Origin: Chiloscyllium plagiosum
Lineage: Eukaryota
DNA: 52,363 nt
Reading direction: 5' to 3'
Assembly: GCF_004010195.1 (NCBI RefSeq)
Contig: NC_057718.1
Span: 44,304,949-44,357,311, forward strand
Shown here: positions 2,976 through 51,546 of the stretch, in pieces
Layout: each line of letters starts with the position of its first letter
Numbering within the stretch: the first letter of the stretch is position 1
Made by a program: the position numbers and the translations under genes
Notes under the pieces: model-generated
Told to the model about the DNA's origin: nothing
Seen by the model: the letters and a program-made list of their open reading frames with translations, nothing else
Databases searched by the model: none

Positions 2976-3679
2976 TCTTCTCTTTTCCACTTTTATCACC
3001 ACAATATTGTTACTGCAAAATCTTTCCTCTCCATAAACTGGCCGTATGGATTTTCCACATTTGAGGAATTATGCTTCATCTTCAGTTGTGCCACAGTGAT
3101 GGGTCCCTGACCTGTACTGAATGTCTTTGGGTGAAGTTTATTTGTACTTCATGTGGTAACTTCTCTGCATTCACCTGAAGCTATTGGCATAAAGGCTAGG
3201 AAATGGGAAACACATTGTATGGCATATTCCATCAATTGAATATAATTATGACATTTACGTAACCTCACTTCTTCTAAAATACTGGAAATGGCGGAGGAAG
3301 CAGGAAACTGGTAAAACAGCTCCTAAAGAAGTTCTGTCATATTTTTAAAAGTCAACATGAGCCAGTGCACAACCTAAGCCGTACTGATTTGTTTCCTTAG
3401 ATACTACTCAGTTTTTAACTTCTGCTAACTTTATTGCAAAGTATTAAAGAGAACAAAATATTTGATTGACTCACTGTCTCAAGGCTGATTGGAAAGCATT
3501 CTCTTTTGAGATTAGAAATGTCCCCAAAACTTCAAAAAGAGAGAAATTATGCATGCTCTGCCTGCATATAAGTTTAACAATCATGAGGTCGTAGAACAGA
3601 AAGTATTGGAAATAAATCAATTTGTTCAAAGATGTGTTCTTTATCTAAACTAAACTTTGCTATTTTCTACATGTCAATG

Positions 3680-3865
3680 GAAGGAAGTGCAAATTGAAGC
3701 TTGCATGACCGTTGGTTATGCTTCCAGCGAATGGGCCTAAGCACAAACTCTAAAAGCTCACCTATTATGCAACCCAGGCCTGTCACTGAGCTGCAGACTG
3801 ACAGAAAAGGAGTGTTTTTAATATCATGGAGTAAGCCCACACAGCCCAATAGTGAAATATTGTGT
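3680..3865 (+). pseudogene. USH2A: Usherin (USH2A) pseudo-exon, 5' part of the exon homologous to human exon 64 (FN3 repeat)
   Basis: Manual translation from 3681 gives KEVQIEACMTVGYASSEWA*AQTLKA, then a 1-bp frameshift at ~3759, then PIMQPRPVTELQTDRKGVFLISWSKPTQPNSEILC. This matches recalled human YEIRIQACTTLGCASSDWTFIQTPEIAPLMQPPPHLEVQ...SLLWTGPLQPNGKVLY. Stop TAA at 3738-3740; the expected acceptor AG reads TG (3678-3679). Confidence 0.88.
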
Positions 3866-3871
3866 ATTTAT

Positions 3872-5298
3872 GGGTGAGGTGCCTGATGACTGGAGGGTAG
3901 CTAATGTTGTACCTTTGTTTAAGAAAGGTTGTAAGGAGAAACTGGGGAACCATAGACCTGTGAGTCTGACTTCAGTTGTGGGTAGATTGTTGGAGGTGAT
4001 CATAAAAGATAGGATTTAAGGACTTTTAGAGAAGCAAAAATCGATTAGGGATAGTCAGCATGGTTTTGTGTAAGGAAAATCATGCCTCACAAACTTGATT
4101 GAGGTTTTTGAGGCAATTACCAAAAAGGCTGATGATGGCAGAGCAGTAGGCGTTATTTATTTGGATCTTAGTGAAGCCTTTGACCAGGTTCCACACGATA
4201 GACTAATTAGTAAAATTAGATCACATGGGATTCAGAATACATAATTGCTTAATGGCTGGAGACAGAGAAAAATGGTGGAGGATTGCTTTTCGGACTGGAG
4301 ACCTGTGTCCAGCAGCATTCCACAGAAATCGGTTCTGGGTCCTCTTTTGTTTGTCATTTATGTAAATGATTTGGATGAAAACATAGAAGGCATGGTTAGT
4401 AACTTTGTAGATGACACAAAATTGGTGATATAGCAGCTAGTGAAGAAGATTATCAAAGATTACAAAGGGATCTTGATCAAAAGGGTCAATGGGCTGAAAA
4501 ATGGCAGATGGAGTTCAATCTGGACAAATGCAAGATATTGCATTTTGTATAACAAACAAGGATACAGTTTATACAATTAATGCTAGGGCCTTGGGAAGTG
4601 TTGTAGAACAGAGGGACCTAGGTGTGCAGATACATAATTCTTTAAAGTTTGCAATATATAGTCAGGTTGGTCAAAAAGGCATTTGGCACACTTGCCTTCA
4701 TTGCTCAGTCCTTTGACGATAGGAGTTGGGAAGTCATGCTGAAGTTGTACAGGACCTTCTTGGGGCCTCTTCTGCAATATTGTGTCCAGTTCTGGTAGCC
4801 TAGTTATAGGAAGGATATTATCAAGCTGAGGAGAGTTCGGAAGATATTTGCCAGGATGTTGCCAGATATGAAAGGTCTGCGTTATAAAGAAAGGCTGGAT
4901 AGGCTCGGACTTTTTCACTCGAGCATAACAGGTTGAGAGGCGACCTGATAGAAGTTCATAAAATAATGAGAGGTACAAATAGAGTTGATGGTAGTTGTCT
5001 TTTCCCTAAGATGGGGACTTTCAAGACTAGGGAGCACATTTTTAAGGTAAGGGGAGAGAGATTTTAACAAGACATATAAGGCAAATATTTTACACAGAGG
5101 GTGATTCGCATGTGGAATGAACCTCCTGAAGAAGTGGTGGATGCGGGTACAATGACAACATATAAAAACATTATAGGAAAGGTTTGGAGGGATATTGACC
5201 AGGAGCAGGCAGGTGGAACCAGTTTAGTTTGGGATTATGTTCGGCATGGACCAGTTGGACCGAGAGGTCTATTTCCATGCTGTATAACTCTTTGACTC
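3872..5298 (+). mobile_element. 5'-truncated CR1 LINE (RT domain plus 3' UTR) inserted within the USH2A pseudo-exon
   Basis: DWRVANVVPLFKKG...RPVSLTSVVG, QHGF, PQKSVLGPLLFVIYVNDLD, FVDDTK, YCVQFW, and a 3' tail ...ccatgctgtataactctttgactcta; multiple stops and frameshifts. Confidence 0.93.
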
Positions 5299-5424
5299 TA
5301 TCAACTATACAGAAGAAAAGAAATGCATTCCTCAAGGGATATAGCATTGGTTTTTATTTACAATGGTTCCTCCATGTTATTTCCAGATACAATGTTACTT
5401 CCTTAAACTGCATATTAATATCAG
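5299..5424 (+). pseudogene. USH2A: USH2A pseudo-exon, 3' part of the exon-64 homologue (resumes after the CR1 insertion)
   Basis: Translation YQLYRRKEMHSSRDIALVFIYNGSSMLFPDTMLLP*TAY*YQ, then GT donor at 5425. Matches recalled human YELYRRQIATQPRKSNPVLIYNGSSTSFIDSELLPFTEYEYQ with the same phase-0 boundary. Stops TAA at 5404 and 5416. Confidence 0.9.
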
Positions 5425-6079
5425 GTAAAAAGCACTTCTTAAAACAAAAATCAGAAGCATTGTCATTTGAATGTTGACTCCATATATTTTGCATGTTTCA
5501 TTTAGCACTAATTAAAATAAGGTCTTCTACATCAGGTGCCTTGAACGCCTACAAAGTGGAGAAATGAAGATCAGACGCATAAACATTAAATGTCTTCTTC
5601 AAAAAAAAACTTGGTTCTAAAAATCACCATCACAAAGGTAGCCAGATTGTCAAAGATCTCTCTCAGGAACTATCTGATTCCTTGATGTATTTATTTTATG
5701 GCAATTTGTTTTCTTTGTTCTCAGGTGCAAAATATAAAATGTTCTTCTTCTTTGTAGGAAGGAATTAGAAACAGACCATAAAAACCTGAGATCAGTAATC
5801 CTATTATTGATTGTACCATAGCTCATATAAAACAGAAAATGAAAAATATTGAAAAATGAGAGACATTGTAGCATCTTAATCTCAACAACATGCTCTGTGT
5901 TGATTAATTTGTCTTCAGGACAAATTGGTTGCCTTTTAATGCTTGCAAACTCATGATCTAGATAGGGAATGATTTTATGTCCAGTGCAATATTAATGCAG
6001 TCTTTCTTGATATTTCTTGAACATTGAAAAGGGTTGTAGCATCTCTGGTTCATTGAGAACATGTTATTTTGTGACAAGT

Positions 6080-6245
6080 CTCAGCAATATTTATCCTTTA
6101 ATCAATATAAAACTAAAACATATTTCTGATCATTATATAGCTTCGCTGTTTGTAAGAGTAGCTGTGTGCAAATTGGCTGACATGTTTCCCATGCTGATTA
6201 CTTTTCCAGAGATCTTAGTTGGTGGTACAGCACTTTGAGACATCC
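6080..6245 (+). mobile_element. Deu-domain SINE fragment
   Basis: gctgtttgtaagagtagctgtgtgcaaattggctg...cagcactttgagacatcc, similar to the copy at 2790-2975. Confidence 0.45.
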
Positions 6246-6260
6246 ACACAAAAAAAATGT

Positions 6261-6437
6261 TTTTTTTTTAAAGTCTGGTTATTTCTGAATTCTCAGACAA
6301 TACAACTACTGGGTCATGAGAACTGAATGTTCATCACAAAAAATAATATAAAATGAAAATCTATTTTTTTAAAGTCTGGTTATTTTTGAATTCTCAGACA
6401 ATACAACTATTGGGTCATGAGAACTGAATGTTCATCA
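6261..6437. repeat. Direct duplication of ~75 bp (period ~101 bp) abutting an assembly gap
   Basis: aaagtctggttatttYtgaattctcagacaatacaacta(c/t)tgggtcatgagaactgaatgttcatca occurs twice; the second copy ends at the N-run. Confidence 0.85.
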
Positions 6438-6855
6438 NNNNNNNNNNNNNNNNNNNNNNNNNNNNNNNNNNNNNNNNNNNNNNNNNNNNNNNNNNNNNNN
6501 NNNNNNNNNNNNNNNNNNNNNNNNNNNNNNNNNNNNNNNNNNNNNNNNNNNNNNNNNNNNNNNNNNNNNNNNNNNNNNNNNNNNNNNNNNNNNNNNNNNN
6601 NNNNNNNNNNNNNNNNNNNNNNNNNNNNNNNNNNNNNNNNNNNNNNNNNNNNNNNNNNNNNNNNNNNNNNNNNNNNNNNNNNNNNNNNNNNNNNNNNNNN
6701 NNNNNNNNNNNNNNNNNNNNNNNNNNNNNNNNNNNNNNNNNNNNNNNNNNNNNNNNNNNNNNNNNNNNNNNNNNNNNNNNNNNNNNNNNNNNNNNNNNNN
6801 NNNNNNNNNNNNNNNNNNNNNNNNNNNNNNNNNNGGAGGAGGCAGGAAAAGGGAT

Positions 6856-13025: not shown

Positions 13026-13346
13026 GGGGCAGCACGGTGGCTCAGTGGTTAGCACTGCTGCCTCACAGAGCCAGACACCTGGGTTCAATTCCCGACTCAG
13101 GCGACTGACTGTGTGGAGTTTGCACAAAATCCCCATGTCTGCATGGGTTTCCTCCGGGTGCTCTGGTTTCCTCCCACAGTCCAAAGATGTGCAGATTAAG
13201 TGAATTGGCCATGCTAAATTGCCCGTGTTAGGTAAAGGGGTAAATGTAGGGGAATGGGTGGGTTGCGCTTCGGCGGGTCGGTGTGGACTTGTTGGGCCGA
13301 AGGGCCTGTTTCCACACTGTAAGTAATCTAATCTAATCTAATCTAA
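13026..13346 (+). mobile_element. Full-length HE1-type (V-SINE) tRNA-derived SINE
   Basis: A box tggctcagtgg, B box ggttcaattcc, V-domain gggtttcctccgggtgctctggtttcctcccacagtccaaagatgtgc, CR1-like tail, and (AATCT)n end. Confidence 0.9.
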
Positions 13347-14429: not shown

Positions 14430-15400
14430 GTTGTGGTTCTGTTTGCCGAGCTGGGAATTTGTGTTGCAGACGTTCGTCCCCTGTCTAGGTGACATCCTCA
14501 GTGCTTGGAAGCCTCCTGTGAAGCACTTCTGTGATATTTCCTCTGGCATTTATAGTGGTAATCATTAAAAACACAGAAATAGAGAACACACACCGGATCA
14601 TCAATGCCACACTCTCAGGAATCCGATTCACTAGAGAGGAAGAAAAGGACAACCAACTCCCATTCATAGACGTGATGGTACAGAGAACACCGAACGGAGA
14701 ATTCACCACAAAGGTATACAGGAAAGCCACACACACAGACCAAGTCCTGAACTACGAAAGCAACCACCCCAACACACACAAAAGAAGTTGCATCAAGACA
14801 CTGTTCAAAAGGGCCACAACACACTNNNNNNNNNNNNNNNNNNNNNNNNNATGAGTGCTATGCCTCTAGGAATTCCCTGGCTGTTCTCTGTTTGGCTTGT
14901 CCTATAATAGTAGTGTTGTCCCATTCGAATTCATGTTGCTTGTCATCTGTGTGTGTGGCTACTAAGGATAGCTGGTCATGCCGTTTTGTACACCAACTAG
15001 CCACGAAACGACATGACCAGCTATCCTTAGTAGTCACACACTCAGATGCCAAGCAACATGAGTTTGACTGGGACAACACTACTATCATAGGACAAGCCAA
15101 ACAGAGAACAGCCAGGGAATTCCTAGAGGCATGGCACTCATCCACAGATTCAATCAATAAGCACATCGACCTGGACCCAATATACCGACCACTGCAACGG
15201 ACAGCTGGAACTGACAACTGGAAGCGGCAGGGACAAACCACTATAAATGCCGGAGGAAATATCACAGAAGCGCTTCACAGAAGGCTCCCAAGCACTGAGG
15301 ATGTCACCGAGACAGGGGACAAAACGTCTGCAACACAAATTCCCAGCTCGGCGAACAGAACCACAACAATGAGCACCCAAGCTACAAATCTTCTCACAAA
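14430..15400 (+). mobile_element. Penelope-like retroelement with inverted terminal segment, RT thumb and GIY-YIG C-terminus (contains a 25-N gap)
   Basis: IRFTREEEKDNQLPFIDVMVQRTPNGEFTTKVYRKATHTDQVLNYESNHP; AREFLEAWHSSTDSINKHIDLDPIYRPL. 14430-14559 is the reverse complement of ~15237-15368. 14-bp TSD cttccaacaggttt at 14416-14429 and 15401-15414. Confidence 0.9.
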
Positions 15401-27828: not shown

Positions 27829-28112
27829 ATCATAGAATCCCTATAGTGGAAGTAGGCCATTTAACCCATCGAGTTCATACCGGTCCTCTGAAGAACATTC
27901 TGTGACCCACACCCCCTAACCTATCACCCTCCATTATCCATCTAATCTGCACATTTTTGGACTATGGGAGGAAACTGGAGCACCCAGCTGAAACCCCTGC
28001 AGACACAGGGAGAACATACAAACTTCACATAGACAGTCACCTGAGGGTAGAATCAAACCCATGTCCTTGGTGCTGTGAAGCAACAGTGGTAACCACTGAG
28101 CCACCATGTTCC
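27829..28112 (-). mobile_element. HE1-type SINE
   Basis: Reverse-strand tail, V-domain and tRNA head (ctgcacatttttggactatgggaggaaactggagcacc...aaccactgagccaccatg). Confidence 0.88.
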
Positions 28113-29324
28113 ACCTCACCCCTGCCCCCCGCACCCCCCACTCCCACCCTCCCCAATTGGGAGGAGGAAAATACAAAGCAGATATAAAACAATGCTGTGC
28201 AGGGAGATATGACTGGAACCAATTTTGACTCAAAGGTCTTGTCGAGATGTTGCAAACATCAGGGACATGTGACCCATGCAAAGGTTAGCTGAGCCCTTCT
28301 AACCCAGCAGGCTCTAAAATTCACTTTGAGATACCATGCATATGTACCAGTTGAAGACATGCCATTGAACTGATCCATTCTTAATTGCAATGACTGCTGC
28401 ATATCTCAATAGTGGTCTCATTTTGAAGGAACCTTGCTTCTTTTCCTTCCTTTCTAGCTTTACCACTCAGGAACAGAAGCCTACCTGTCTGGATAACACT
28501 AGTGTGTTCAAAGAGAAACACTGTGCATGTTTACCATGAAATGAAACCCCAGTGAATCACTCAGCAGTCCCCTCTGACATAGTGATTCTATTGTTGAGTG
28601 CCAGTTCAGGGATCAGCAGCATCAGTGCAGAGAACCCTCCAGTGAACGACCCTGCTGCATGGATGATCCCTCAGTACAGAGGGTTCAAGAAGGTCACTAT
28701 ATTATTGACTCCTCGCACCCCCTGTCCCCATTGGTGACTGCCTCAGTTCTTGGCTGGGACTCCTGTTTGCAGGATGATAACATCAGCTGGACACAACTGC
28801 ACCCACTTCTATTGCTTGGCCCCACTAGTGTTACTGACTAGTCAATGCTGTAGAAAACTGCATGCAATCTATGCTGTTCCTTTATCTGTTCATGCTGCTG
28901 ATTCTCTCAGAAGTTGGCCCACTTTCTCAATGGAGGAGCTTGCTTGTTCACAATACTGCACCAGGGTGATGCACAGGAGCTGGCTTTGGGAGACACAAGC
29001 AGGAGCTTGTGAGAACTTGTCTGTGACAGCAGAAGTCTCTGCAATGCTGTAGCTTTCCAATGCTGCTGCTCTTTGGCATGCTGTCAGTGACAGAGAAGTA
29101 CACTGCAGCCCAACCCACTGTCACCTTCTCCCACTTGGTTCTGTGAGGCCATCCTGGTGAGTTGTTCCCTCCCACTCTACTGTATTGATAATGACAAGGG
29201 GGAGCAGCACCTTTCCTGTGTGAACCCTCTCCCAGGAATTAGGTCTCCTTTTATCCTCAATGGACAAAAGAGAGAAGGGTAATGCTGATGACAATCACCA
29301 GTGCTAGCTGCCCATTCTCAGACG

Positions 29325-39225: not shown

Positions 39226-41274
39226 TATAGCTGTTTTATGACACGTGAAAAGAAAACTTAGGGAATGCATATGTAAAATCTGTCACCCAGCAAGTAGCCT
39301 AACACTAGACAGGCAGTAGATAGAAAGAATGTCTTGATGGTTGAAAGTTGAAATGACTATGATCAGAAAAGTGGATCTAATTGAGGAGCAGAATACCTTC
39401 CTATTCACATGCATGGATCCTGGGACATACCATGCAGAGTCATTTGTACTCAATCAATTATTCCTTGCACTCTTACTCCATGGAGAAAGAGTTGGAATCA
39501 ATTTTCCTGGAGTACCAAAACTTGAGGATGTCCCTGATGCTGCAGATTACAAACCATGTTATGTCATCTAAGTAATTTGTTGCAGACTGAAATGATCCTT
39601 TCCCACTGAAAATCAGGGCTACAGTGACTTAGAGATCTACAATTTAGGGCTATCTGTACTCTAGTGTGGAGCTTCAATTGACTATGCAATGAGTGGAACA
39701 GTTCTGTGTTTGCTTCACTTATGAAAAGAGGGTGCCGGATGCATTACTCCTCTGTGTGGTTGAGACATAGCAGTTGGTTCCCGAAGACAGAAAGCATGTT
39801 GGGTTGCCCTAATTCTCTCCTGCAACTTTCTTCTTCCAGTCATTGCTGGATTGAATGGCAATGGATTAGGGTTGAGAAGTCAAATGGTCAACACGTGCTC
39901 CTAATTCATATGTTCGTATGACTTACCCTCGCTGGGGTAACTAATCCTCATTCTCTAGATCAAATGATAAACTCAGCAGAACTCCAGTGACAGCAGCAAC
40001 TGCATCAAACTATAATGACAGAACAATACTACATGTTCAGAATGTAGCGAAAAGACATTTTAAAGAAATATTCCTCCAGCTAAAACAATCAAATGCTGGT
40101 CTNNNNNNNNNNNNNNNNNNNNNNNNNNNNNNNNNNNNNNNNNNNNNNNNNNNNNNNNNNNNNNNNNNNNNNNNNNNNNNNNNNNNNNNNNNNNNNNNNN
40201 NNNNNNNNNNNNNNNNNNNNNNNNNNNNNNNNNNNNNNNNNNNNNNNNNNNNNNNNNNNNNNNNNNNNNNNNNNNNNNNNNNNNNNNNNNNNNNNNNNNN
40301 NNNNNNNNNNNNNNNNNNNNNNNNNNNNNNNNNNNNNNNNNNNNNNNNNNNNNNNNNNNNNNNNNNNNNNNNNNNNNNNNNNNNNNNNNNNNNNNNNNNN
40401 NNNNNNNNNNNNNNNNNNNNNNNNNNNNNNNNNNNNNNNNNNNNNNNNNNNNNNNNNNNNNNNNNNNNNNNNNNNNNNNNNNNNNNNNNNNNNNNNNNNN
40501 NNNNNNNNNNNNNNNNNNNNNNNNNNNNNNNNNNNNNNNNNNNNNNNNNNNNNNNNNNNNNNNNNNNNNNNNNNNNNNNNNNNNNNNNNNNNNNNNNNNN
40601 NNGATGGGTAAAGAAATTGAGGGTTTGGTTAAGAATAAAAAGCAAGCATATGGGAGATATAGACAGGATAGATCGAGTGAATCCTTAGAAGAGTGTAAAG
40701 GCAGTAGGAGTATACTTAAGAGGAAAATCAGGAGGGCAAAAAGGGGACATGAGACAGTTTTGGCAAATAGAGTTAAGGAGAATCCAAAGGGTTTTTGCAA
40801 ATACATTAAGGACAAAAGGGTAACTAGGGAGAGAATAGGGTCCCTCAAAAATCAGCAAGGCGGCCTTTGTGTGGAGCCGCAAGAGATGGGGTAGATATTA
40901 AACGAGTATTTTGCATCAGTATTTACTGTGGAAAAGGACATGGAAGATATAGAATGTAGGGAAATAGACAGTGACATCTTAAAAAATGTGCATATTACAG
41001 AGGAGGAAGTGCTGGATGTCTTGAAACATATAAAAGTGGATAAATCCCCAGGACCTGATCAGGTGTACGCTGGGACTCTGTGGGAAGCAAAGGAAGTAGT
41101 TGCTGGGGCCCTTGCTGAGATATTTTTATCATCGACAGTCACAGGTGAGGTGCTGGAAGACTGGAAGTTGGCTAACGTGGTGCCAATGTTTAAGAAGGAT
41201 GGTAAGGACAAGCCAGGGAACTATAGACCAGTGAGCCGGATGTCAGTGATGGGGAAAATCCTGAGGGACAGGAT

Positions 41275-41600
41275 TACTTAGAGTGTGGAAACAGGCCCTT
41301 CAGCCCAACAAGTCCACACCGACCCGCCGAAGCGCACCCACCCAGACCCATTCCCCTACATTTACTCTCGCACCTAACACTACGGGCAATTTAGCATGGT
41401 CAATTCACCTAACCTGCACATTTTTGGACCGTGGGAGGAAACCGGAGCACCCGGAGCACCCGGAGGAAACCCACGCAGACAGGGGGTGAATGTGCAAACT
41501 CCACACAGTCAGTCACCTGAGGCGGGAATTGAACCTGGGTCTCTGGCGCTGTGAGGCAGCAGTGCTAACCACTGTACCACTGTACCACCGTACCGCACAC
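41275..41600 (-). mobile_element. HE1-type SINE nested in CR1
   Basis: Reverse complement of the 13026-13346 family; flanked by caggat at 41269-41274 and 41601-41606. Confidence 0.9.
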
Positions 41601-48975: not shown

Positions 48976-49904
48976 CTTGGAATCAAAAGAGTTGTGAATG
49001 CAGTTGGAAAGAGACTGAATCAGGAAGATAAAATAGAATTAATACAGGAACAAATAAGTTCAATGGGGCAGGATCATGCTGAAACAATGTCCTGTTTGTG
49101 AATTTTGAGAAGGAGGTAGAAGTGGGTTGTTAGGCTATGAGGTGGGAAGCATTGGGAATGAACTAATGTCAGTGAAATTCCTGGAAATAATGGCTTGATA
49201 TTTGGTATTGATGTTATCATCCAGGAGGAGGTACAAAGAAATATCTGAGAGTTCGCATTCAGCTCAAGTTGGCATTCAGTTGGCATTTGCAAGGTAGAGG
49301 TCAGTTTGCTGTATAACAACAGCACCACCCTTTTCAGTAGGTTTGGTAACAATGTCAAGATTTGACCTGAAAGAATGAGTTCACGATGTTCAGAGAGAGA
49401 CAGGTTCAAATAAATGAAGAAATTAAAATAGCTCCTGTCACACTGCCCTTTCTCAATGAAAAGACCATTAGACACCTAATGAAGGCAAACAGGTATAAGG
49501 AGAATATTGAGGCAAGATGAAAGGATCCACTGGTTGGTCAGAGGACTGGTGTCTTTACCAAACTGATTCTATATTTTTTGAACCTCTAAACCCAGATCAT
49601 TTCTCAATTTTGTGCTTTAAAACATTGCAATAAAAATATGAAAAAAATAAAAAGATAAAAAAATTGAAAGTAAAAGGTAACAGAAGAAGAATCCTGTGAC
49701 TTGTGGAGTTTGTTATCATTATGGTGGGGTCATATAGGATAATATTTCCAATGTAGTTGGCTATGTACTATAACAATTAGTGAAGTAAGGTCCAATTTTG
49801 CCCTGTAGGCCTTCTCTCATGTAATAAATTGTTTCCTGATGCTAAAGCATGACTATTTAATAGAGTTTGTGTTCTTTCTACTATAATCTTTCTTTAACCT
49901 TCAG

Positions 49905-50117
49905 GTATGTTCAGTGAATTCTGGAGCATAAACATCGAGTGGATGAACTCGTTCTGGAACAGAGCAAGCCCCGCCTGAAAGCCTGTCTCCTGCCAGCTTT
50001 ATTTCAGTGGACTTAAGCTGAGCAGCAGGAAAATTCACTCCTCCTACCCAACCAAATGGAATTATCAGCTTGTACAGGTTGTTTGCTGACAACCAGACCA
50101 GAAATGTTGACTTATTG
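49905..50117 (+). pseudogene. USH2A: USH2A pseudo-exon homologous to human exon 65 (FN3 repeat)
   Basis: Polypyrimidine tract plus CAG acceptor ending at 49904 and GTAAG donor at 50118. The 71 codons read VCSVNSGA*TSSG*TRSGTEQAPPESLSPASFISVDLS*AAGKFTPPTQPNGIISLYRLFADNQTRNVDLL, aligning without gaps to recalled human VWAVNSAGKAPSSWTWCRTGPAPPEGLRAPTFHVISSTQAVVNISAPGKPNGIVSLYRLF. Stops at 49929, 49944 and 50019. Confidence 0.92.
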
Positions 50118-50589
50118 GTAAGCACCAGTATTGTTGCTTTTATCACTCCTGCAGCTGCAAGGAGGAAGACAAACTAAATACTCATTTATTTTTATTTTAT
50201 CCAAAATGTATATCTGGCATATGCCTCACCATACTTTTAACAATAGTTTAGCATGCCTCAGATACCTTTATCAATGGATATTTCAGGGTCAGTTTATCCC
50301 AAATTGTCTCAACCTCAGCAATTTGGGCAAATTTTCAATCCATTCCTTAACTGCATTTAATCAGTCAATATAAATCAGCAACTTGCTGGAAGGTGGGGGT
50401 CAAATGTCAGTGAGGGACTATGAGGGACCAAAAGTGTTACTTGCTGGTACAAATTTAAATCCCGAGGGTTTGAAGTATGGTCTTACACTAGTTTGTGAAG
50501 GAGAAGCCCCATGTGTATCTGGTGGAACCAAAACAGGTATTAAAATCATTCATAGGACTTAAGGCCTTAATCATGTTCTGAAAGTTCTG

Positions 50590-51546
50590 ATATCAGCATG
50601 GACTCCCAGCCTCAGCACAGACTTCCAGCATCAAGAGTTTCAAGTTGAAGCCAGCACAGACTCCTGGCCTCAGCACAGACTCCCAGCCTCAACATGGACT
50701 TCCGGCCTCAGCATAGACTCTTGGTCTCAGCACAGATTCCTACACTCAATACGGACTTCTGGCCTCAGCACGGACTCTCAGCCTCAGCACAGACTTCCAG
50801 CCTCAAGAAGAAGCCAGCACAGACTCCCGGCCTCAACGTGGACTACTAGCCTCAGCATGAACTCCTGGCCTCAGCACGGACTTCCGGCCTCAGCAAGGAC
50901 TTCTGGCCTCATTGTGGACTTCCAGCCTCAAGAAGAAGCCAGCACAGACTCCCGGCCTCAAAGTGGACTTCTGGCCTCAGCATCGACTCCTGGCCTCAGC
51001 ACAGACGTCTACTCTCAGTACGAACTTCCGGCCTCAGCATGGACTCCCAGCTTCTGCACAGACTTCCAGCCTCAAGAAGAAGCCGGCACAGACTCCTGGC
51101 CTCAACATGGACTTCTAGCCTCAGCATGAACTCCCGGTCTTAGCACGGACACCCAGCCTCAAGGTGAATCCAGAGTGAAATCCCATCCTCAGTGTAGGCT
51201 CCTGGCCTCAGCACAGAATCCTGGCCTTGAGAGCCTCAAGGTGAGGCCAGGTGTGATGGGGAGGCTAGGTGCTGGCATGGACTGGGTTGGAAGAACTATT
51301 ATTCTGAACTTTTTATTTCTTTGTTTTTTTACTTTTTCCTACAATTTTCTATTTTTGTACCTAAGATGGTGTGAAGATCTGTAATGCTGGACAGTTTATT
51401 TTTTTATTTTTCTAATTTTTTCTAAGGATTTATGCATAAGAATCTGTACCTAGGTATATTTGTAGCAAAAGATGGTGCCATAAGTGCTGACTTGTCAACT
51501 TTTCACCTACTTGTGACAATAAAGCTAATTCTATTTCTAATTCTAA
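50590..51546 (+). mobile_element. Unclassified non-autonomous retroposon that appears to carry the minisatellite
   Basis: The array runs into a T-rich segment, gtacctaagatgg motifs and a tail tgtgacaataaagctaattctatttctaattcta; an inverted relative lies at 47170-47810. Confidence 0.5.
50594..51228 (+). repeat. 19-bp minisatellite (about 30 units) with higher-order structure
   Basis: Unit CAGCACAGACTCCTGGCCT and variants; 11-bp spacer CAAGAAGAAGC after runs of 8, 6 and 7 units. Confidence 0.92.

What the first reader, a model, noticed from the sequence alone, without database searches (positions are those of the whole stretch)
3866..5298. CR1 LINE inserted in the middle of a USH2A exon, a datable inactivation marker
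The exon reading stops at …PTQPNSEILC (3865) and resumes at YQLYRR… (5299), exactly across a ~1.43 kb sense-oriented, 5'-truncated CR1. Sequencing error cannot produce this. The CR1 copy has its own stops and frameshifts, so the insertion is not very recent. No clear TSD is visible, at most tat.
Basis: seen in the sequence. Interest (0 to 1): 0.75.

Follow-up and report, generated by a model that had tools for sequence, protein, structure and literature searches.

The report
Old retrotransposon splits dead usherin exon
An old jumping-gene copy really does split one exon of this shark's broken deaf-blindness gene USH2A and is shared with close relatives, so it sets a minimum age for the gene's loss, but it is one of many breaks and probably not the first.

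Summary
Confirmed. A sense, 5'-truncated CR1-type LINE (about 3869-5301) sits between adjacent codons of one usherin exon: the halves map to residues 644-712 and 713-754 of a sawshark usherin-like protein. Misassembly is refuted. Contigs from a run filed under another study than the best holder bridge both junctions, as do contigs of organism B (2-4% diverged); organism C's contig ends 25 bases inside the CR1 tail. There is no frame-preserving TSD. The 'tat' is a 3' overlap between CR1 tail and target, normal for CR1. The gene is dead anyway: 6 stops in 173 codons over two exons, a frameshift, no acceptor AG where expected. Clocks give about 0.10 substitutions/site for the CR1 (upper bound about 0.14) and about 0.14 (0.08-0.22) for gene death. 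These cannot be separated (p=0.09-0.47). So the insertion is an old null lesion that gives a minimum age for the loss, roughly 60-210 My at borrowed shark rates. It is not shown to be the cause (about 5%). The scan already noted this USH2A loss in four other windows of this genome. Eight literature searches showed no report of it.

The parts
3680..3865 (+). 5' half of a USH2A FN3 exon (equivalent to human exon 64; number and start position rest on a recalled exon length). Stop at 3738, 1-nt deletion near 3750-3757, 9-nt in-frame gap near 3811, no AG at the expected acceptor (3678-3679 read TG).
3866..3868 (+). Three bases of unassigned origin at the 5' junction (untemplated, or a decayed TSD)
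   Evidence: paralogous contigs start matching at 3869-3874 (table 8)
3869..5298 (+). 5'-truncated CR1-type LINE, sense to the gene: RT part and C-terminus of ORF2 (to about 5220) plus short 3' UTR. Stops at 4017, 4071, 4796, 5065, 5077, 5196; deletions near 4242, 4416, 4547, 4651, 4910, 5172. In the exon's frame a stop comes at 3875.
5288..5301 (+). Octamer tail of the LINE. Its last three bases (5299-5301) are also the first codon of the right exon half (3' overlap).
   Evidence: 7 copies aligned; loose ends at 5301
5299..5424 (+). 3' half of the same exon, stops at 5404 and 5416, GT donor at 5425
49905..50117 (+). Next USH2A exon, AG/GT intact, stops at 49929, 49944, 50019

Best explanation
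A CR1-type LINE inserted by target-primed reverse transcription into a USH2A exon (inferred mechanism). Its octamer tail probably paired with a TAT at the nick, which left a 3-base overlap and no clean TSD. Reverse transcription stopped near the start of the RT domain, so the copy was dead on arrival. The insertion is a null lesion on its own: it puts a stop 4 codons downstream (shown). It was fixed long before organisms A, B and probably C split (sharing shown for B, likely for C). It most likely landed early in the decay of a gene already released from selection, so it gives a minimum age for the loss of long usherin and a clean presence/absence character, not a proven cause.
For: Collinear halves. 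Both junctions bridged by X4 (organism A, study P2: 3126-3902 with 1 difference, 5223-6200 with 0) and by X9 (organism B: 3000-3903 with 38 differences and 15 gap letters, 5234-6200 with 19 and 10). X16 (organism C) has a contig that ends at 5274, inside the tail. Tail overlap is as described for CR1 in PMC6007223 (passages). Independent decay: 6 stops in 173 codons; 27 of 92 residues shared by sawshark and desman are changed, against 4 of 69 on the sawshark side (p=4e-5). Point estimates put gene death (0.137) at or before the insertion (0.103 from stops; at most 0.126 from conserved residues; at most about 0.14 from dN).
Against: The two clocks overlap fully: Fisher p=0.42 for conserved residues, p=0.09 for stops, p=0.47 for all lesions. 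Frameshifts are denser in the CR1 (6-7 in about 1350 nt) than in the exons (1 in about 530 nt). The order 'gene first, insertion later' is therefore a prior, not a result. No empty site was seen in any species: no 3865-to-5299 joint is among the 15 of 1225 joints shown. Organism C falls short of the tool's 31-letter rule for bridging. No CR1 subfamily consensus was available.
Confidence: 0.8

Rival explanations
1. The CR1 insertion was the founding lesion that killed long usherin; all stops came later.
For: The insertion is null on its own (stop at 3875). Its age cannot be told from the age of gene death. It is far older than the 2-4% split among A, B and C.
Against: About 7 lesions per 530 nt scaled to a roughly 15.6-kb coding sequence (length recalled) means about 200 lesions, any of which could be first. 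The point estimates favour earlier gene death. Earlier scan notes report decay across upstream exons too (untested here).
Confidence: 0.05
2. The insertion is a late passenger, much younger than gene death (less than half its age).
For: Stop density is 2.6-fold higher in the exons (6/173 against 6/445; p=0.09). The stop-based estimate for the exons reaches 0.3. The closest long paralogous contigs differ by about 11-15% (table 8), which could mean only 6-7% per copy.
Against: Conserved-residue erosion is similar (27/92 against 25/107). The CR1 carries 12-13 disabling lesions. The 85% likeness cut-off truncates the contig comparison.
Confidence: 0.14
3. Assembly artefact, or two halves of different exons.
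For: The window has N gaps nearby (6438-6834). No laid contig spans the whole insert.
Against: Both junctions are bridged in organism A (study P2) and in organism B. The halves are adjacent residues in two reference proteins.
Confidence: 0.01

Closest known systems
CR1 non-LTR retrotransposons of vertebrates (PMC2612034, PMC6007223, PMC13343379; passages read)
   Same: RT-bearing ORF2 end, short 3' UTR, terminal octamer repeat, copy under 2 kb, 3' tail overlapping the target by a few bases. CR1-group elements make up 22-34% of elasmobranch genomes.
   Different: The octamer unit differs from the avian one at some positions. It belongs to a different subfamily from the other copies in the window (about 30% apart). 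Clade placement against reference CR1s was not tested.
Usherin (USH2A): sawshark usherin-like P0003, desman usherin P0004 (source-given names)
   Same: Collinear FN3 exons; 109 of 173 codons identical to sawshark.
   Different: Six stops, a frameshift, a missing acceptor and the LINE insertion.
USH2A divergence in blind mammals (PMC4948712, passages)
   Same: USH2A is listed among genes with increased divergence when vision is lost, so relaxed selection on it has a precedent.
   Different: Those are blind mammals, and the passages show divergence, not a LINE insertion. No phenotype was tested for this animal.
CR1 presence/absence as a dated marker (waterfowl LDH-B intron, PMC2612034, passages)
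   Same: A shared insertion scored across species to bracket a date.
   Different: That one is intronic and 9-11 My old; this one is exonic, in a pseudogene, and much older.

Membership tests
CR1 LINE | Reverse transcriptase domain in ORF2 | tested here: met
   RVT_1 pieces in order in 4 of 5 insert fragments, each below the cut-off. A 69%-identical copy scores E 3.9e-24 and matches RVT_1 clusters in the Atlas.
CR1 LINE | 3' terminal octamer repeat instead of poly(A) | tested here: met
   Shared octamer tail in the 7 copies aligned. No AATAAA or ATTAAA in 3866-5500.
CR1 LINE | 5' truncation and short 3' overlap with the target | tested here: met
   The copy starts just before the RT domain. 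3-base overlap at 5299-5301.
CR1 LINE | Apurinic endonuclease domain and ORF1 | not testable with these tools
   Absent from this truncated copy; no full-length subfamily member was available.
CR1 LINE | RT groups with the CR1 clade, not L2, Rex1 or Zenon | not tested
   No reference CR1 set available. The label rests on the tail, recalled likeness, and the reported lack of L2 in galeomorph sharks.
USH2A orthologue | Best match to usherin, collinear over consecutive exons | tested here: met
   4 hits among 14 candidates; the best identity (63%, full cover) is sawshark usherin-like. Both exons map to one contiguous stretch, residues 644-827. P0003 and P0004 are 52% identical.
USH2A orthologue | Conserved synteny | not testable with these tools
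   No genome is held for this window. Earlier notes claim it, unchecked.
Unitary pseudogene | Several independent disabling lesions and relaxed selection | tested here: met
Unitary pseudogene | No intact copy elsewhere in the genome | not testable with these tools
   No G000.
Founding (causal) inactivating mutation | Older than or as old as every other lesion | tested here: inconclusive
   The clocks overlap. No outgroup with the empty site.

The most novel reading that the evidence does not exclude
A single CR1 insertion more than about 100 My ago was the lesion that abolished full-length usherin in this shark lineage. It lies one exon upstream of the point where earlier scan notes say a conserved membrane-anchor-and-tail part begins, so it would mark the switch from long usherin to a tail-only product in a living vertebrate lineage.
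Probability: 0.05. Interest if true: 0.75.

Novelty: new member of a known kind. Interest (0 to 1): 0.42.

Why it matters
LINE insertions in dead exons are ordinary, above all in genomes where CR1-group elements are a quarter to a third of the DNA. This one is useful because it is null on its own, old, and easy to score. Its presence in a species proves the long usherin was already lost or was lost then, so it puts a floor under the age of a USH2A loss that my searches did not find in print. Human USH2A loss causes Usher syndrome type 2 (established knowledge), so a lineage that has lacked it for tens of millions of years or more would be a natural knockout. That interest belongs mainly to the gene loss, which the scan has already noted elsewhere in this genome.

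Tried and rejected
No whole genome is held. The homologue search with the right exon half found no candidate. Searches used the wrong frame of the second exon and are void. PDB searches gave only weak FN3 hits or none. Pfam did not recognise the four exon pieces. An Atlas look-up of the second exon was not obtained; its identity rests. An exact CR1 pattern found nothing in metagenome or genome contigs, so no subfamily consensus could be had. No RNA holder was listed; run X19 (organism D) covered the CR1 part and almost none of the flanks, which says nothing on expression. Organism C has no cover at 3107-3534 and 3749-3855; a hole proves nothing. Whether the stops at 3738, 5404 and 5416 are shared could not be read: 40 of 352 difference rows were shown, including 18 of organism C's 25, and none fell at those places (a weak hint only). 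'tat' as TSD: rejected, neither candidate keeps collinearity. G-to-A hypermutation of the copy: rejected, 75/317 G against 25/127 C changed, so base composition explains it. Premature polyadenylation by the insert: no canonical signal. The bootstrap crashed and was redone for dN only. Rfam: no hit.

Full report
Observation. The left exon half ends at 3865 and the right half begins at 5299. A homologue search with the next exon gave 4 proteins among 14 candidates; the closest was a sawshark usherin-like protein, P0003 (63%, full cover), and another was desman usherin, P0004. On the window these map to 3669-3862, 5299-5433 and 49902-50123, one contiguous stretch of P0003. Codon line-up puts 3863-3865 on residue 712 and 5299-5301 on residue 713. 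The halves are one exon, with a GT donor at 5425. The human exon number (64) and the 3680 start are recalled, not tested.

The insert. Four of five fragments match RVT_1 in order on the + strand, each below the curated cut-off. The insert is 69% identical over 1.1-1.4 kb to two other copies in the window and shares their octamer tail. The CR1 label rests on this tail and on recalled likeness; clade placement was not tested. Homology starts at about 3869-3873. The tail continues into 5299-5301, which is also the first codon of the right half. Such overlaps of one to several bases are described for CR1 (PMC6007223, passages). The two 'tat' candidates for a TSD give -1 or +3 bases against the references, so no clean TSD survives. 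In the exon's frame a stop comes at 3875, so the insertion is a null lesion by itself.

Is it real, and who shares it? One search listed 24 runs from four coded organisms; I laid 4. X4 (organism A, study P2; the best holder X1 is in study P1) has contigs over 3126-3902 (1 difference) and 5223-6200 (0). X9 (organism B) has contigs over 3000-3903 (38 differences, 15 gap letters) and 5234-6200 (19, 10). All four bridge a junction by more than 31 letters. X16 (organism C) has a contig that ends at 5274, 25 letters inside the tail, which suggests the insertion but is below that rule. No contig spans the whole insert, and no empty-site joint is among the 15 of 1225 shown. B and C differ from A by 2.0-4.2% and 2.7%. 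B has a 5-base deletion of its own at 5313.

The gene is dead on other grounds. The two exons hold 6 stops in 173 aligned codons, a 1-base deletion near 3755, and no AG at the expected acceptor. Of 92 residues shared by sawshark and desman, 27 are changed here; of 69 shared by the window and desman, 4 are changed in sawshark (p=4e-5).

Order of events. The CR1 copy has 6 stops in 445 ORF2 codons, plus five frameshifting deletions and an 18-base loss that probably is two events. Under an assumed HKY model (kappa 4), gene death falls at 0.137 substitutions/site (0.078-0.218). The CR1 falls at 0.103 from stops (0.035-0.28) and at most 0.126 (0.08-0.19) from 25 of 107 conserved residues. Its dN branch is 0.14-0.17 in three trios that span three subfamilies and 0.20 in a fourth; these include master-lineage change and are upper bounds. 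None of three tests separates the clocks: p=0.42 and 0.09, p=0.47 (exon length entered as about 535 nt, acceptor loss not counted). Stops lean towards earlier gene death; frameshifts lean the other way. With about 200 lesions expected over the whole gene (scaled; length recalled), I put the chance that this one came first near 5%.

Absolute age. Whale and zebra shark differ by dS 0.061-0.111 over about 50 My (PMC13100897, passages), or 0.6-1.1e-9 per site per year. On that borrowed rate 0.07-0.13 is about 60-210 My. The epaulette shark's low mutation rate (PMC10587355, passages) agrees in direction. The rate of this lineage is unknown, so the figure is rough. I did not identify the species; 'shark' rests on the sawshark match, and 'carpet shark' comes from earlier notes.

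What is known. Searches for USH2A or usherin with shark terms gave 0 papers. One search gave 21 (20 listed; listing only, none on this by title or abstract start) and one search gave 5 unrelated. 'USH2A, gene loss, inactivating mutations' gave 0. One search gave one paper, which lists USH2A as diverged in blind mammals (PMC4948712, passages). One search found no 'USH2A' in the whale shark paper's main text. The library lacks most subscription papers, and supplements of shark genome papers, which I did not see, may list the loss. Four earlier scan reports on other windows of this genome describe the dead gene, and two say the last exons are preserved; I tested only the decay of the two exons in this window.

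Verdict. It is an ordinary kind of event in a noteworthy pseudogene: a sound minimum-age marker, not a demonstrated cause.

Noticed in passing
window 41272-41592; similar copies at 13034-13328 and 27936-28115: A 320-base repeat, probably a SINE (inferred), nested inside another CR1 copy.
   Followed up: no
window 14522-15274: RT-end-like frames of a different retroelement, Penelope-like by recall, with an internal inverted duplication around an N gap. No Pfam hit for the piece scanned.
   Followed up: partly
window 50593-51150: Array of a 19-base unit, about 23 copies, with 125- and 144-base higher-order periods, just downstream of the second exon.
   Followed up: no
window 6263-6336 and 6364-6437: 74-base duplication at 97% identity abutting the N gap at 6438-6834, possibly an assembly artefact.
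   Followed up: no
P0003 (sawshark usherin-like, 1201 aa): Only the C-terminal part of usherin, with ends that do not align to desman usherin. This may be a split annotation or a disruption in that species too.
   Followed up: no
window 5313 and 5340-5367: Organism B has a 5-base deletion and organism C at least five substitutions in the right exon half, consistent with continued decay after they split.
   Followed up: partly
window downstream of 50117: Earlier scan notes say the last exons of the gene are preserved. If so, the dead/preserved boundary may lie just after the second exon here; no further exon was found before 52363.
   Followed up: no
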